Positions 31,435 through 62,505 of a stretch of DNA of 64,000 nucleotides are shown piece by piece. Source of the stretch: Nitrososphaerales archaeon (GTDB taxonomy: Archaea > Thermoproteota > Nitrososphaeria > Nitrososphaerales > UBA213); the NCBI GenBank assembly GCA_965197925.1, contig CBDAOC010000017.1, positions 32,001 through 96,000 of the forward strand. The letters are read 5' to 3'. Below the pieces are notes generated by a model, which saw only the letters and a list, made by a program, of their open reading frames with translations, was not told the DNA's origin and did no database searches. Made by a program: the position numbers and the translations under genes. Every line of letters starts with the position of its first letter. Within the stretch, counting starts at the first letter, position 1.

Positions 31435-32314
31435 GAAGTCATCCCAATACTCTCCAATACATCATAATCGACGAAATGATAACAAATGCCAGATAGTTTT
31501 GTGCATTCTTCTCATATCTGATCCTGGTTCTGTGGAACCCATTCTTCAACCAGGCAAAGAATCTCTCCACAACATAGCGCGTCTTGCCGTATAGGTATTG
31601 TTCTGTATTATCATTTTGTTGTTGTGTCTTACTGTTTTTTCTGTAAGGCATGCAGTCAGAGATTTTTCTTTTGGTGAGGTATTTCCTGATGAATTCTGCA
31701 TCATAGCCCTTGTCTGCTTGGCACCGCGCAATTTTTCTGATAGATCTCTCATCCAGATATTGTGAGATGCCATCCATCACGTCTACAAATCTTGCAGAGT
31801 CATGCTGATTTGCAGGACCCATCACTACTGAGACTGGCAGTCCGTTTTGTTCCACCGCAACGTGTATTTTTGTGCCTGAAATCCTGTTGAATCCGTTGTA
31901 TCCTATGACGCTTCCCCTTTTTTGGCCGGAACTGATGACGAATCGACCGTTTTTTGCAGCTGCATCTTGCCTGATCTGTGGGCTGATTTGACTGCAGCGG
32001 AGAGGATATTCTTCCATATTCCACGTCGCTGCCAGTTCTGCAGTCTGCGGTGCGCAGTTGATTTGGAGCCGTACCTTTGTGACATCCCAGTCCACCTGCA
32101 TCCTGTTATCCCGACAAACAGGATTCCGTTGACTGTCTTTCTGTCGTCTGCCCTTGGCCTTCCGGTTCTGGCTGGCTTGGGGAGATGCGGTGATATCATC
32201 TTCCATTGTTCACCTGTTATCTCCTGAAATTTCATGATCTGCTACGGGCAGCATTGCAAATAGATCCAAATGATCGTCAATTATTCACTAAATGATCAGT
32301 TTTGGGATCAGTTG
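31435..32314 (-). mobile_element. IS family B, intact orfB
   Basis: 880 bp, near-identical to 27191-28070. Confidence 0.92.
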
Positions 32315-56794: not shown

Positions 56795-58071
56795 GTGTTG
56801 CACCTTTCGAGGCAGTAGAGGGCCGTCGTCTTTGGATCATGGTTGGGATGGTCACTTGGTTATGATCTAGTGCTAATGCTTCTTGTAACCCCATATTTAA
56901 GTCAGCCCTTCTTCCCATCTGAAGATCCCACTTTTAGTTTATTAGTAACATTCGCAACATATGTCATAACGCTGATAATGCGGCCTGTAGGTGGTGCGTT
57001 GTTCGGCAGTTTAGGAGATAGACATGGTAGAAAGAAACCTATGATAATTACTATCATGGGTTTTTCTATTGCTACATTCGCAACAGGTTTGTTACCTACC
57101 TGGCAGATGGTAGGCATATTTGCGCCATTTCTGTTAGTACTCTTACGGTTAGCTCAGGGACTCTTTTCAGGGGGTGAATGGGCTAGCGGTGCAGTGCTCA
57201 CGATGGAGACTACCAAGATCAAGCCGGGGATTACTTTCTAGATTCGTACAGAATGGATTTACATTGGGATTCCTCATTGCGTCGATAACATACCAATTTG
57301 CATCTGTTGCATACACTGAGGACACCTTGGAAATGGGGTAGAGGGTTATGTTCTTCACAGGCATAATTCCGGGTTTGGTAGCTCTTTTCGTCAGATTTAA
57401 GATGAAAGAATCCGAAGTATGGTTGGAGAAGGTGCGCCAGAAGAAGATTGAGAGGGCAACCTTGCGTAAGGTTATGTTAAATGTTGAACATAGAAAACGT
57501 TTCTTCCTTTCTTTAATGATCATGACAGGTCTAATGTATGCTTATTACACATCAATTGGCTTTATGCCAACATTTCTTCAACAGTATGATCATCTTGAGC
57601 GACCAGAGGTTGCCACTTATGATTGCCGCTACAGTTTCATCCCTGCTCGGACATATTTTTACTGGCTTTATCAGTTAGTACATAGGTAGAAAGAAGTCCA
57701 TAGCGATATTTGCTCTTGCAGCTATACTGCTAGCTGTTCCTATGTTAATTGGTCTTTATAATGCTACTCATATTTCAGAAAGGATAATCTATACAGGTGT
57801 GTTAGTGTTTGTAACAACAACTGGATTCGGACCTATACCAGCATTTCTATCAGAGAGATTCCCAACGGAAATTAGAAACAGTGCGTGTGGTTTCGTATAC
57901 AACGGCGGGTTGATATTCGGCTCCTGGGCACCGTTGATAGTAGTCAACTTATTATCCCAAGCAGGATCTCTTGTTCCAATTATCCTTGCTTTAAATATTG
58001 TGGTAGGTTCAATAATAATTCTTGTTGGTACAAAACTCAATCCAGAGACACGTGATACGGACTTGACATAA
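56795..58071 (+). pseudogene. MFS transporter (metabolite:H+ symporter type), frameshifted
   Basis: RPVGG.LFG.LGDRHGRK, GGEW and SERFPTEIR motifs in three frames, plus an early TAG. Confidence 0.88.
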
Positions 58072-58308: not shown

Positions 58309-59186
58309 CAACTGATCCCAAAACTGATCATTTAGTGAATAATTGACGATCATTTGGATCTATTTGCAATGCTGCCCGTAGCAGATCATGAAATTTCAGG
58401 AGATAACAGGTGAACAATGGAAGATGATATCACCGCATCTCCCCAAGCCAGCCAGAACCGGAAGGCCAAGGGCAGACGACAGAAAGACAGTCAACGGAAT
58501 CCTGTTTGTCGGGATAACAGGATGCAGGTGGACTGGGATGTCACAAAGGTACGGCTCCAAATCAACTGCGCACCGCAGACTGCAGAACTGGCAGCGACGT
58601 GGAATATGGAAGAATATCCTCTCCGCTGCAGTCAAATCAGCCCACAGATCAGGCAAGATGCAGCTGCAAAAAACGGTCGATTCGTCATCAGTTCCGGCCA
58701 AAAAAGGGGAAGCGTCATAGGATACAACGGATTCAACAGGATTTCAGGCACAAAAATACACGTTGCGGTGGAACAAAACGGACTGCCAGTCTCAGTAGTA
58801 ATGTCCTGCAAATCAGCATGACTCTGCAAGATTTGTAGACGTGATGGATGGCATCTCACAATATCTGGATGAGAGATCTATCAGAAAAATTGCGCGGTGC
58901 CAAGCAGACAAGGGCTATGATGCAGAATTCATCAGGAAATACCTCACCAAAAGAAAAATCTCTGACTGCATGCCTTACAGAAAAAACAGTAAGACACAAC
59001 AACAAAATGATAATACAGAACAATACCTATACGGCAAGACGCGCTATGTTGTGGAGAGATTCTTTGCCTGGTTGAAGAATGGGTTCCACAGAACCAGGAT
59101 CAGATATGAGAAGAATGCACAAAACTATCTGGCATTTGTTATCATTTCGTCGATTATGATGTATTGGAGAGTATTGGGATGACTTC
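58309..59186 (+). mobile_element. IS family B, copy with the 2-bp deletion
   Basis: 878 bp; same orfB lesion as 7041-7918. Confidence 0.92.
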
Positions 59187-59194
59187 TATATTAG

Positions 59195-59740
59195 TTATTG
59201 TTTCTTTATGGAGAGGACCTTTTGAACTTCGCTAATACTGTTTATGAACTTCTTTTTCGCCTCAAAAACATCAGATACTTTTACAACTACCTCTGTAGAA
59301 GAGAGCATTACATCCTTTACAACTAATGGTGCACTGAGGCCAAGGAGTTCACTGAGCACGTCAAATATATTACTAAATTTAGCACCACCCCTGTATGTAT
59401 AAATTGTATTCCCATCGTTCATCTTAGGAGTAGGTTCTATAGGAATGATAAGGTCCGATGATGTTATTTCGGTTATGAAGGTAGTCATGTCATTATTAAT
59501 AGTATCATCAAGTGTATCTCTCTGCAGCAATAGTTTCTCTCTAGTGCTTTCAAGCATTCCAAGTTCATCATGATACTCAACGCCAATCATTTTTGCAAAA
59601 GCTGATTCGGTTGCGCTTTTTATTGGTAGTTCATGCATCTTGACACCTATATCTGACAATTCATTATCAACGTCAGAAAGTTCCAGTCTGTTAGTCTTAA
59701 TTCTTCCAGCAAGTTCTTCTAAAAAATGAAAGTCAACCAT
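59195..59740 (-). CDS. Uncharacterised protein with N-terminal coiled coil, downstream of tubulin
   Basis: 181 aa; starts 11 bp after the tubulin stop on the same strand. Confidence 0.8.
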   Translation of the reverse strand: MVDFHFLEELAGRIKTNRLELSDVDNELSDIGVKMHELPIKSATESAFAKMIGVEYHDELGMLESTREKLLLQRDTLDDTINNDMTTFITEITSSDLIIPIEPTPKMNDGNTIYTYRGGAKFSNIFDVLSELLGLSAPLVVKDVMLSSTEVVVKVSDVFEAKKKFINSISEVQKVLSIKKQ

Positions 59741-59751
59741 ATTCCATCACT

Positions 59752-61134
59752 TTAGCTGAAGTGATGAACAACATCCATAAGACTTTGTTTAAATTCTTCG
59801 TTCGCAAGTCCCCATTTAGCATACTCTTCCCTAAATGAATCCCATGATTGCTCCGCCTCTGTGGCAATATCGAGTATCTTTTGTCCTATAGCTTTGGTAT
59901 TTATCAGGATTGTAACATGAGCCGGCTCATTTTCCATTATGGGTATTTTTACAAATATCATCCTTGAATCCTCGATATTAAACCGTTCTCTTATCACCAT
60001 CTTTAGTGCTTCTCTTTCTTTCAAGTCAAATTCGCCCCTTACTTTAACCAAGGCACAGCAAGAATCCCTTGAACCTCCTTTATCCCTTATTGCATTCTCA
60101 TCTATATCGAATAGAATTGCATCTTCTTTGTGGTGAACTGCGTCCATAATTCCCTCCATGGTGTTATTATTGTCAATATTCATTGGGTTCCAATGACCAC
60201 CTGAAGGTACAAGAGGTATTACCCAAGGTATTGCGAATTTTGGGCGTTTGGTCGCCAACCACGTTCTGTAGTTAGACATATCCCACTCTGTCTCCCTTGC
60301 AAATGAAGCTATAAACATAGATATTGCATTTGCAGCTATGATATTCATACCTCTATAGTCCTTCCATCCTGCTTCATGCTCCTTGGGTAAGTCGTCTATT
60401 ATCGATTGCATTTTATCAAGTTTATTTTTGAACTGTTGTGAATACTTTCGCAATGTTTTGTTATCCAATAATAATGAACAGTCTGAGAACTTGATTTGAT
60501 ATTCTAGATTCATGACTATGTTTATTGCCGCTGCTTCAAATATTACTGGATCCCATCCGAACTCAGGGAGCAATCCTATGGTTGCTAGTGTTGCATGTGC
60601 TCCAATATCCTTTTTTATGTATTCTATGAAGGCACTTGCAAATGAACTGCCTGTCCCTCCGCCCATTGCGAAAGGAATGGTGAAGCCTCTAACCGGTTCA
60701 GGTGAGAGCGATGCCAGCTGTTTTTGAATATCGAACTTGGAGGAAACTTCCTTCGTGAAGCGTGTTCGGCCCTCAGCCCAATTCCTCGCTGCTCCTCCTG
60801 TTCCATGTATTACATGCTTATCCCTTAACGCAAAAAGATCTGGGTATGATTGAAGGATTAGATTAGCCGCTCGAGGATCTAGGTCTACGAGAAGCGCTCT
60901 TGGAATTAGAGGTATTTCTCCTCCATTATACGAGTTGGGGAACCTTAGGATAGTGCTTCCATATCTTTTCAAGACTTTCGACTCCTCCTTCTCACCATGC
61001 AGTACTGGCTTCAATGGATCTGCGCCTACGTCTAAAAGAAGCCTCCTGTATGATTCTGCCCCCAATCCTATACCACAATGTCCGAAGCAGGTCATCAACA
61101 CCGGGGCAGGTGGAAGCGGAGTAAATTTAGCCAA
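59752..61134 (-). CDS. Eukaryote-like tubulin (artubulin)
   Basis: GHCGIGLG, PRALLVDLDP, GAARNWAEG, GGGTGS, DCSLLLDN and YRGMN motifs; 460 aa. Confidence 0.88.
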   Translation of the reverse strand: MAKFTPLPPAPVLMTCFGHCGIGLGAESYRRLLLDVGADPLKPVLHGEKEESKVLKRYGSTILRFPNSYNGGEIPLIPRALLVDLDPRAANLILQSYPDLFALRDKHVIHGTGGAARNWAEGRTRFTKEVSSKFDIQKQLASLSPEPVRGFTIPFAMGGGTGSSFASAFIEYIKKDIGAHATLATIGLLPEFGWDPVIFEAAAINIVMNLEYQIKFSDCSLLLDNKTLRKYSQQFKNKLDKMQSIIDDLPKEHEAGWKDYRGMNIIAANAISMFIASFARETEWDMSNYRTWLATKRPKFAIPWVIPLVPSGGHWNPMNIDNNNTMEGIMDAVHHKEDAILFDIDENAIRDKGGSRDSCCALVKVRGEFDLKEREALKMVIRERFNIEDSRMIFVKIPIMENEPAHVTILINTKAIGQKILDIATEAEQSWDSFREEYAKWGLANEEFKQSLMDVVHHFS

Positions 61135-61218: not shown

Positions 61219-61734
61219 CTAATCTATAGTTATTACTCTTTCAGGTCCTGCTGGTCTTCGATCTAAATCACTATACCCTGTTGGATTTATGGTAGGTTCT
61301 AACTCCAAACAATTTGTGTTTTCAATAAAGTCTAAAACAAAGAGTCCCTCTGCACGTAGGTTTCTATCATAATCATTGTTCATAGTTCTACAATGGATAC
61401 TAGCATTAACTGTTCCATCATGTGTCTGAAATCTTAAATTCAAACTCAATATGTTATTTTTTTCAAAATTAGAAACTCCTACCTCTAAGTTTCCACCATG
61501 TCTCTGGTTTCGCAGTTCTTCTTTAGCATCAGGGAATCTTTCATAAAATGCTGCATAGGAGGGATGTGCTTTGAGTTTCTTTAGCAGTTCTTCATCACTC
61601 ATGAATGAATTTCCAATTTCTGCCCATGGATTGTTTTCAATGATGTTTGGTAAGAATGTATACCAGAACAAGCCAAACATAGAGATTGTAATTCCCAATC
61701 CTACAAAATAAGTAATTTTTCTTAACGTAATCAT
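61219..61734 (-). CDS. Membrane-anchored hypothetical protein
   Basis: N-terminal TM helix; AFYERFPDA. Confidence 0.7.
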   Translation of the reverse strand: MITLRKITYFVGLGITISMFGLFWYTFLPNIIENNPWAEIGNSFMSDEELLKKLKAHPSYAAFYERFPDAKEELRNQRHGGNLEVGVSNFEKNNILSLNLRFQTHDGTVNASIHCRTMNNDYDRNLRAEGLFVLDFIENTNCLELEPTINPTGYSDLDRRPAGPERVITID

Positions 61735-62055: not shown

Positions 62056-62505
62056 TCACTTGGGATATAGGTCGCCCTGCACCTCATAAGCCCGCCTGTC
62101 ACATGTTGGACATTTTAGAATAACATGCTCTGATAGCGTCAGATCGGGATTGCTCTGCAGCTCAACACCAGCCTCAACCTCACTCACCTTTATCTCCACT
62201 TCCAGAACATCATCCGTGTCTTCTATGGTGGTTAGCGTGAAGGTGTTGTGTGTGAATTTTGCTTCAAGTGCTGCAAGTGAAGAGTTGAACTGTGTCTTAA
62301 TTGATGCTTTGATGCTTGTCCTATCTGCTGCTGGGAGATCTACCTCTCTAGGATCGCCCCCTTCGTCAACAATGGTCTTTTTCGGTACATCCACCCTGTT
62401 GTGTTCAATTAACGTGTATTGGCTCCATCCGGGGTTTATGCTCTTTGGTGCTATGAATAGTGTATGACAACCATTACACTCGAATGAAGCTTCTATTTCG
62501 ACCAT
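62056..62505 (-). CDS. Hypothetical protein with terminal CxxC motifs (possibly viral)
   Basis: CNGC and CPTC; higher GC than the host; GGAGGTG SD-like site upstream. Confidence 0.6.
   Translation of the reverse strand: MVEIEASFECNGCHTLFIAPKSINPGWSQYTLIEHNRVDVPKKTIVDEGGDPREVDLPAADRTSIKASIKTQFNSSLAALEAKFTHNTFTLTTIEDTDDVLEVEIKVSEVEAGVELQSNPDLTLSEHVILKCPTCDRRAYEVQGDLYPK

What the first reader, a model, noticed from the sequence alone, without database searches (positions are those of the whole stretch)
59195..61134. Eukaryote-like tubulin in a two-gene unit with an unknown coiled-coil partner
Seen: the motifs match tubulin rather than FtsZ/CetZ: PRALLVDLDP (cf. PRAVLVDLEP), GAARNWAEG (cf. GAGNNWAKG), GGGTGS, DCSLLLDN (cf. 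DCAFMVDN), plus a C-terminal helical region. The T7-loop region is divergent (ETEWDMSNY). The gene is intact amid widespread decay, which implies selection. Known: artubulins were described in Nitrosarchaeum next to an ESCRT-III (Snf7) gene. Here the gene 11 bp downstream encodes a 181-aa protein with a coiled coil followed by an alpha/beta region that I do not recognise as Snf7. Inference: a distinct archaeal cytoskeletal module with a dedicated tubulin-binding partner.
Basis: partly seen in the sequence, partly recalled or inferred. Interest (0 to 1): 0.8.

Follow-up and report, generated by a model that had tools for sequence, protein, structure and literature searches.

The report
Known archaeal tubulin with fixed partner
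This is an already named but never tested archaeal tubulin ("artubulin"); what stands out is that it is almost always followed by one small gene of an undescribed family, which is probably its working partner.

Summary
The 460-aa protein is an ortholog of the published Nitrosarchaeum artubulin (about 74% identical). The 181-aa gene is not peculiar to this locus: it follows artubulin within 22 bp in 80 of 80 named and 20 of 20 deep-branching loci, including loci with the published Snf7-artubulin order. Snf7 was adjacent in only 3 of 89 loci. In 301 genomes, all 72 with an artubulin match had the partner. Where artubulin was deleted, the partner was broken in 3 genomes and intact in 1. Tubulin-free families keep shortened or tip-altered relatives. 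The partner is not Snf7 by sequence; it is a helical hairpin plus a small alpha/beta domain of no known family. The T7 loop is not drifting: it is almost invariant in 222 sequences and appears to have Asn where tubulin has its catalytic Glu. Best reading: a slow-hydrolysing, non-essential tubulin filament with a dedicated binding cofactor. Binding is inferred; the complex predictor was unavailable. This scan noted the pair twice before on other genomes; my searches found no paper on the partner.

The parts
59752..61134 (-). artubulin gene, 460 aa, TTG start; full tubulin fold with C-terminal helices
   Evidence: homologs begin at the same place with Met
59195..59740 (-). partner gene, 181 aa, acidic (pI 4.8), no strongly hydrophobic 19-residue segment; N-terminal helical hairpin (1-92) plus alpha/beta domain (93-181, low-confidence model)
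59741..59751 (-). 11-bp spacer between the two genes; 2-15 bp in nearly all relatives
60256..60297 (-). T7 loop / start of helix H8 (R280-L293); 280-288 invariant; N288 at the inferred catalytic position
   Evidence: register inferred from a recalled N-x-D-x-x-D/E pattern and the genome's own FtsZ
60649..60663 (-). GGGTG phosphate-binding (T4) loop
60769..60795 (-). GAARNWAEG (T3-region) motif, invariant in the family
59582..59635 (-). hairpin tip of the partner (residues 36-53); P39, F48, G53 invariant in 105 of 105 artubulin-linked partners; candidate binding surface
58309..59186 (+). multi-copy insertion sequence (DDE transposase, frames split) ending 8 bp from the partner's stop codon; not part of the module

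Best explanation
A two-gene operon of Nitrososphaerales: artubulin plus a dedicated cofactor. Shown: identity as artubulin, conserved linkage, joint inheritance, purifying selection, an intact-looking GTP pocket. Inferred: artubulin binds GTP and stacks head to tail as a homopolymer through its invariant T7/H8 surface; with Asn at the catalytic position it hydrolyses GTP slowly or not by itself, so the filament is stable; the partner binds it directly, probably by the tip of its hairpin, and stabilises, bundles, anchors or turns over the filament. The unit is an accessory scaffold (shape or internal organisation), not the core division machine. My odds by step: identity and operon 0.97; partner works with artubulin 0.85; direct binding 0.55; stable filament 0.5.
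For: Orthology. Fold: OdinTubulin Z 30.3 (rmsd 3.5, 395 aligned), BtubA 30.0, beta 29.2, gamma 28.8, against CetZ 22.9, FtsZ 20.5, TubZ/PhuZ 15-17. Linkage: 80 of 80 and 20 of 20 loci; 72 of 72 artubulin-matching genomes of 301 carry the partner, 71 adjacent, 1 split at contig ends. Trees of 105 pairs: 36 and 29 well-supported splits, 18 shared, 0 in conflict. Loss: G087 and G166 lack artubulin between Snf7 and a frameshifted partner while both neighbours stay 81-85% identical; G129 lost artubulin with most of the partner. P39 and P138 are invariant in linked partners and missing in 3 of 3 tubulin-free f3 copies; the f4 form lacks the hairpin tip. The genome holds FtsZ and three Snf7 paralogs elsewhere. 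RNA-library contigs of one study cover most of the tubulin gene.
Against: No binding, polymerisation or GTPase data exist or were produced. Partner relatives occur without artubulin: full length in 6 of 10 f3 genomes, short in 17 of 43 f4 genomes, a second unlinked copy in G157, and an intact copy beside a 5'-deleted artubulin in G192. The partner is split or cut short beside an intact artubulin in L002 and L047 (may be assembly errors). Tree congruence is expected of any linked genes. G087 and G166 probably share one event. The T7 register has no residue-level structural alignment behind it, and invariant E281 or E283 could do the catalysis. The tubulin model has mean pLDDT 72 and the partner model 65.
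Confidence: 0.5

Rival explanations
1. Artubulin works with ESCRT-III (Snf7/CdvB) in cell division, as proposed in 2012, with the partner as a linker.
For: Snf7 directly upstream in L112-L114; the partner's hairpin scores best against the CHMP4B hairpin, Z 10.2, rmsd 1.6, 78 aligned; proposal in PMC3349469.
Against: Snf7 found in 3 of 89 loci (9 of the 80 named loci had under 1 kb upstream); PMC3835317 already noted no Snf7 beside the Nitrosotenuis gene; Snf7 stays intact where artubulin is deleted; 228 of 301 genomes had no artubulin match; Z near 10 is ordinary for a helical hairpin and ties with unrelated coiled coils.
Confidence: 0.15
2. The partner is only co-transcribed and has its own, tubulin-independent job.
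For: Orphan copies in f3, f4, G157 and G192; distant relatives in Bathyarchaeia and Thermoprotei whose neighbours are unknown.
Against: Linkage holds down to 52% tubulin and 22% partner identity while the other neighbours change between groups; the partner is broken in 3 genomes that lost artubulin; no artubulin-matching genome lacked it.
Confidence: 0.15
3. A DNA-positioning system in the manner of TubZ/TubR: tubulin filament plus adaptor that reaches DNA.
For: Distant partner relatives of about 300 aa carry a C-terminal region with weak winged-helix-type matches (TFIIE_alpha E 8e-4, z-alpha E 2e-3, HTH_5 E 8e-3, one member each of 5), and their profile recovers the window's partner at E 1.5e-29. 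PMC4202323 grouped artubulin with TubZ.
Against: The linked partner has no such region and is acidic; the model is much closer to tubulins than to TubZ; the pair is chromosomal and inherited with congruent trees.
Confidence: 0.1
4. The partner is itself a strongly derived ESCRT-III/PspA-type protein that binds membranes.
For: Hairpin of similar size to the CHMP4B and Shrub hairpins.
Against: No Pfam Snf7 match; deep profile against six Snf7 proteins scores 2 bits or less, profile-profile probability 0.3%; strands predicted in the C-terminal half.
Confidence: 0.07

Closest known systems
Artubulin of Ca. Nitrosoarchaeum limnia/koreensis (Yutin and Koonin 2012, PMC3349469) and Ca. Nitrosotenuis uzonensis (PMC3835317)
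   Same: Same family: the published rows match P0069 almost letter for letter by eye, and P0069 is 74% identical to the window protein; coexists with FtsZ; loci with the published gene order carry the same partner.
   Different: No Snf7 nearby here. The passages read do not mention the downstream gene. The family also reaches a deep-branching family (24 of 81 genomes), where a vWA gene lies head to head (20 of 20) and a third 300-aa gene follows (18 of 20).
OdinTubulin, Asgard AtubA/B, Prosthecobacter BtubA/B
   Same: Full tubulin fold with C-terminal helices; top structural matches, Z about 30.
   Different: Only 16-20% identity in the structural alignments; single gene, no A/B pair; T7 apparently without the catalytic acid.
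gamma-tubulin and beta-tubulin as non-catalytic T7 donors
   Same: PMC13394414 states that K254 in beta (K248 in AtubA) leaves a GTP site inactive; N288 may do the same. That gamma-tubulin works with dedicated scaffold proteins is recalled.
   Different: No alternating catalytic subunit in the genome; the partner matches no known tubulin-binding family.
CetZ and FtsZ
   Same: Archaeal tubulin-superfamily GTPase domain.
   Different: Lower structural scores, alignments stop at model residue 436 and 414; no tie to archaellin as a marker of motility.

Membership tests
Artubulin | High full-length identity to the published Nitrosarchaeum proteins | tested here: met
   Supplement text compared by eye with P0069; 74% identity to the window protein
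Artubulin | Closer to eukaryote-type tubulins than to FtsZ | tested here: met
Artubulin | Present beside a regular FtsZ in the same genome | tested here: met
Artubulin | Next to Snf7 (described for Nitrosarchaeum; a genus trait, not a defining one) | tested here: not met
   three Snf7 paralogs on other contigs; 3 of 89 loci have Snf7
Microtubule-forming alpha/beta-type tubulins | C-terminal helices beyond the FtsZ core | tested here: met
   model helices 415-440 and 445-459 with pLDDT 81-90; alignments run to residue 460
Microtubule-forming alpha/beta-type tubulins | Second tubulin paralog for a heterodimer | tested here: not met
   three Tubulin-domain genes, the other two FtsZ and FtsZ-like; genome 98.7% complete
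Microtubule-forming alpha/beta-type tubulins | Catalytic acid at the 254 position of T7/H8 | tested here: inconclusive
   N288 in 222 of 222; register inferred, E281 and E283 also invariant
Microtubule-forming alpha/beta-type tubulins | Placement inside the tubulin clade in a tree | not tested
   no reference set in hand; PMC13394414 calls the position unresolved, PMC4202323 disputes it
Microtubule-forming alpha/beta-type tubulins | GTP-dependent tubes | not testable with these tools
   needs protein
CetZ / FtsZ | Best structural match, no tubulin C-terminal helices | tested here: not met
   Z 22.9 and 20.5 against 30.3
Snf7/ESCRT-III (partner) | Sequence or profile match to Snf7 | tested here: not met
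Snf7/ESCRT-III (partner) | ESCRT-III fold beyond the hairpin | tested here: inconclusive
   hairpin Z 10.2 is generic; C-terminal half pLDDT under 50

The most novel reading that the evidence does not exclude
The partner is an obligate second component of the artubulin polymer that controls or supplies GTP hydrolysis in trans (E8 is the only acid conserved in both linked groups). That would be a eukaryote-like tubulin whose switch sits in a non-tubulin protein. Its family may also serve other archaeal tubulin-like proteins: the winged-helix-fused forms resemble in outline the coiled-coil plus Snf8-like neighbour described for OdinTubulin (PMC9871819), a link I could not test.
Probability: 0.12. 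Interest if true: 0.85.

Novelty: new member of a known kind. Interest (0 to 1): 0.48.

Why it matters
Artubulin has figured in the debate on tubulin's origin since 2012, and the passages I read report no biochemistry or localisation for it. The comparative evidence says its constant companion is an unstudied 181-aa protein and not Snf7, that its T7 loop is a fixed but unusual surface, and that the pair reaches a deep-branching family of the order. This gives a direct experiment: co-express the two genes, and use natural deletion lineages as controls. If the partner binds, it is a dedicated cofactor of an archaeal eukaryote-like tubulin from a protein family with no known fold match.

Tried and rejected
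TBP-like fold for the partner's C-terminal half: suggested by a weak hit (E 0.36), not supported by profile-profile comparison (probability 1%). Atlas searches gave no usable hit for the partner and only unnamed or sub-threshold structural neighbours for the short form. No solved-structure relative beyond generic coiled coils. Motility link: archaellin over the cut-off in 18 of 43 chosen genomes with intact artubulin and 9 of 33 without; none in the window's genome (hand-picked set). Mobile-element origin: no plasmid match for the tubulin or for P0256; 2 viral hits, 1 inspected and lying in phage structural genes with no tubulin frame; no PADLOC match for the pair. Context of distant partner relatives: two metagenome scans found nothing; three searches of 401 genomes of the phylum gave no full-length match outside the order. 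Inter-protein covariation not attempted: effective depth 14-34. RNA contigs did not cover the partner, so co-transcription is not shown. The 2012 supplementary alignment omits the T7 region, so it could not fix the register; profile alignment to the genome's FtsZ stopped before T7. Bacterial promoter and terminator scans were at chance level. Dropped rows: G268 (E 8.8e-6 in a 903-aa frame) from the artubulin count; repeat-rich eukaryote-like hits P0275, P0283, P0286 from the partner family.

Full report
OBSERVATION. The large protein passes Pfam Tubulin (E 1.2e-15) and its best solved relatives by sequence are Asgard, gamma and beta tubulins. Against the close relative L003, dN/dS is about 0.04 for the tubulin and 0.08 for the small gene; synonymous sites were saturated in the two other comparisons.

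IT IS ARTUBULIN. Relatives at 72-89% identity are labelled Nitrososphaerales, Nitrosopumilaceae, Nitrosotalea and Nitrosotenuis. The two artubulin rows in the supplement of Yutin and Koonin match P0069 almost letter for letter by eye, and P0069 is 74% identical to the window protein. Locus L113 has the neighbours that the paper's figure legend lists (MFS, TBP, Snf7, dCMP deaminase, DNA polymerase, TIM), and there the same 181-aa gene lies 6 bp behind artubulin. So this is the standard artubulin unit and not a separate module. The predicted model (mean pLDDT 72, pTM 0.79) ranks OdinTubulin Z 30.3 (rmsd 3.5, 395 aligned), BtubA 30.0, AtubB2 29.8, beta 29.2, gamma 28.8, above CetZ 22.9, FtsZ 20.5 and TubZ/PhuZ 15-17; only the tubulin alignments reach the C-terminal helices. 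I built no superfamily tree; the published position is disputed or unresolved.

THE CONSTANT NEIGHBOUR IS THE SMALL GENE, NOT SNF7. The partner starts within -22 to 15 bp of the tubulin stop in 80 of 80 named loci (the best 80 of 194 found) and within 2-5 bp in 20 of 20 loci of a deep-branching family. It is cut by a contig end in two of the 80 and split or shortened in two more (L002, L047). In 301 genomes of the class, 73 matched the tubulin profile; I dropped G268 (weak, unrelated frame). All 72 others carry the partner: adjacent in 71, and in G271 both genes break off at contig ends (30 checked by script, the rest from the printed coordinates). Other neighbours change from group to group. 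Snf7 was found in 3 of 89 loci, all one genus (9 of the 80 named loci had under 1 kb upstream), and the window's genome has its three Snf7 paralogs on other contigs. Trees of 105 distinct pairs show no well-supported conflict, which linkage alone would also give.

NATURAL LOSSES. In G087 and G166 artubulin is gone from between Snf7 and the partner, and the partner carries frameshifts and stops while both flanking genes stay 81-85% identical to L113; the two probably share one event. In G129 a deletion removed artubulin and all but the last 40 codons of the partner. Against this, G192 lost the first 295 codons of artubulin and keeps an intact partner. Partner relatives also stand alone: full length in 6 of 10 genomes of family f3, in front of the same small gene that follows the pair in L002-L004; a 125-150-aa form in 17 of 43 genomes of f4; and a second copy in G157. 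Neither f3 nor f4 gave an artubulin match (0 of 10, 0 of 43). The f4 form lacks about 40-50 residues that include the hairpin tip, and f3 lacks P39 and P138, which are invariant in 105 of 105 linked partners. I read this as a tubulin-facing tip on a domain that also has an older, tubulin-free use. That is inference.

WHAT THE PARTNER IS. The model gives a helical hairpin (4-37, 59-92) with a short tip helix (42-52) and a poorly resolved alpha/beta half. No Pfam or NCBIfam family passes. A deep profile does not recognise Snf7. The top structural hit, the CHMP4B hairpin (Z 10.2), ties with unrelated coiled coils. A search of 1.84 billion representatives returned 49 hits, among them 229-241-aa forms (two named Bathyarchaeia), about 300-aa forms with a weakly winged-helix-like tail (one named Thermoprotei) and a 190-aa clade of 12 clusters with the tip intact. 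Profiles made only from the first two groups recover the window's gene (E 5.9e-9 and 1.5e-29). Their gene neighbours could not be obtained.

GTP SITE AND T7. In 222 distinct artubulins, 106 of 460 positions are invariant; the longest runs are 113-122 and 280-288. GGGTG, N225, Y260 and N264 are kept, which by known tubulin chemistry (recalled) points to GTP binding; His replaces the Gln of the first loop. The model places H7 at 261-278, a loop, then H8 at 286-296. On the N-x-D-x-x-D/E pattern (recalled; seen in the genome's own FtsZ) D285 is the conserved Asp and N288 stands at the position of catalytic E254, whose replacement by Lys inactivates the site in beta tubulin (PMC13394414). The register is not confirmed by superposition, and invariant E281 or E283 could substitute.

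MECHANISM. Most likely a homopolymeric, slowly hydrolysing filament with a dedicated soluble cofactor, serving as an accessory scaffold. There is no second tubulin for a heterodimer. It is unlikely to be core division machinery, since 228 of 301 genomes gave no match and this genome keeps FtsZ and Snf7 paralogs. It is not tied to archaella. Contigs from four RNA libraries of one sponge study cover 59853-61108 of the tubulin gene at 99% identity or close to it; DNA carry-over is not excluded.

LOCAL HISTORY. An 878-bp insertion sequence ends 8 bp from the partner's stop. An inverted copy (99.7%) lies at 31435-32314, just before the genes that follow the pair in L002-L004, so an inversion between the copies best explains the present order.

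LITERATURE SEEN. PMC3349469: parts 1-2 of 5 and supplement passages. PMC9871819: passages and a supplement search. PMC13394414: passages; its supplements could not be read and may treat artubulin context or T7. PMC3835317, PMC4202323, PMC10936438: passages. Figures were not visible; Fig. 2B of the 2012 paper and Fig. 6 of PMC9871819 may draw the partner unlabelled or as a coiled-coil gene. Searches showed no paper on the partner; the library lacks most subscription papers. The scan itself reported the pair on two other genomes.

VERDICT. A new member of a known family. Its value lies in correcting the Snf7 association, in the loss evidence for a dedicated partner, and in a clear bench test. 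Interest 0.48.

Noticed in passing
window 31435-32314 and 58309-59186: Inverted, 99.7% identical copies of one insertion sequence bracket a 27-kb segment; gene order in relatives suggests an inversion between them. The element has 104 hits of 800 bp or more in the genome, 39 at 95% or higher.
   Followed up: partly
L127 7237-10760; L132-L151: In the deep-branching family f5 the pair is part of a larger block: a vWA-domain gene head to head upstream (20 of 20) and an unknown 300-aa gene downstream (18 of 20; weak PaaX_M match). Neither was found in the window's genome.
   Followed up: partly
L120-L123, L131 (family f4): A short 125-150-aa partner relative without the long hairpin sits next to the RNase P Rpr2-like gene in several tubulin-free genomes.
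   Followed up: partly
proteins P0256, P0260, P0262, P0292-P0300: A separate 190-aa clade of the partner family with an intact hairpin tip and no taxon label; may mark an undescribed artubulin lineage.
   Followed up: partly
L153 1003-1971: A second, divergent 322-aa FtsZ-like gene in the same genome without an intact GGGTG motif.
   Followed up: no
L075 and L070: Records titled Gammaproteobacteria bacterium and Nitrososphaera sp. carry artubulin loci with the same gene order as records titled Nitrosotenuis; probably mislabelled or misbinned.
   Followed up: no
window 56843-58071: Transporter-like gene in three frames beside the insertion sequence.
   Followed up: no
window 61219-61734 and 62056-62505: Two unknown minus-strand genes upstream of artubulin, not conserved beside it in relatives; the first has an N-terminal hydrophobic stretch and some RNA-contig cover.
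   Followed up: no
G175 (contigs C69 and C7): Two complete artubulin-partner pairs in one genome.
   Followed up: no
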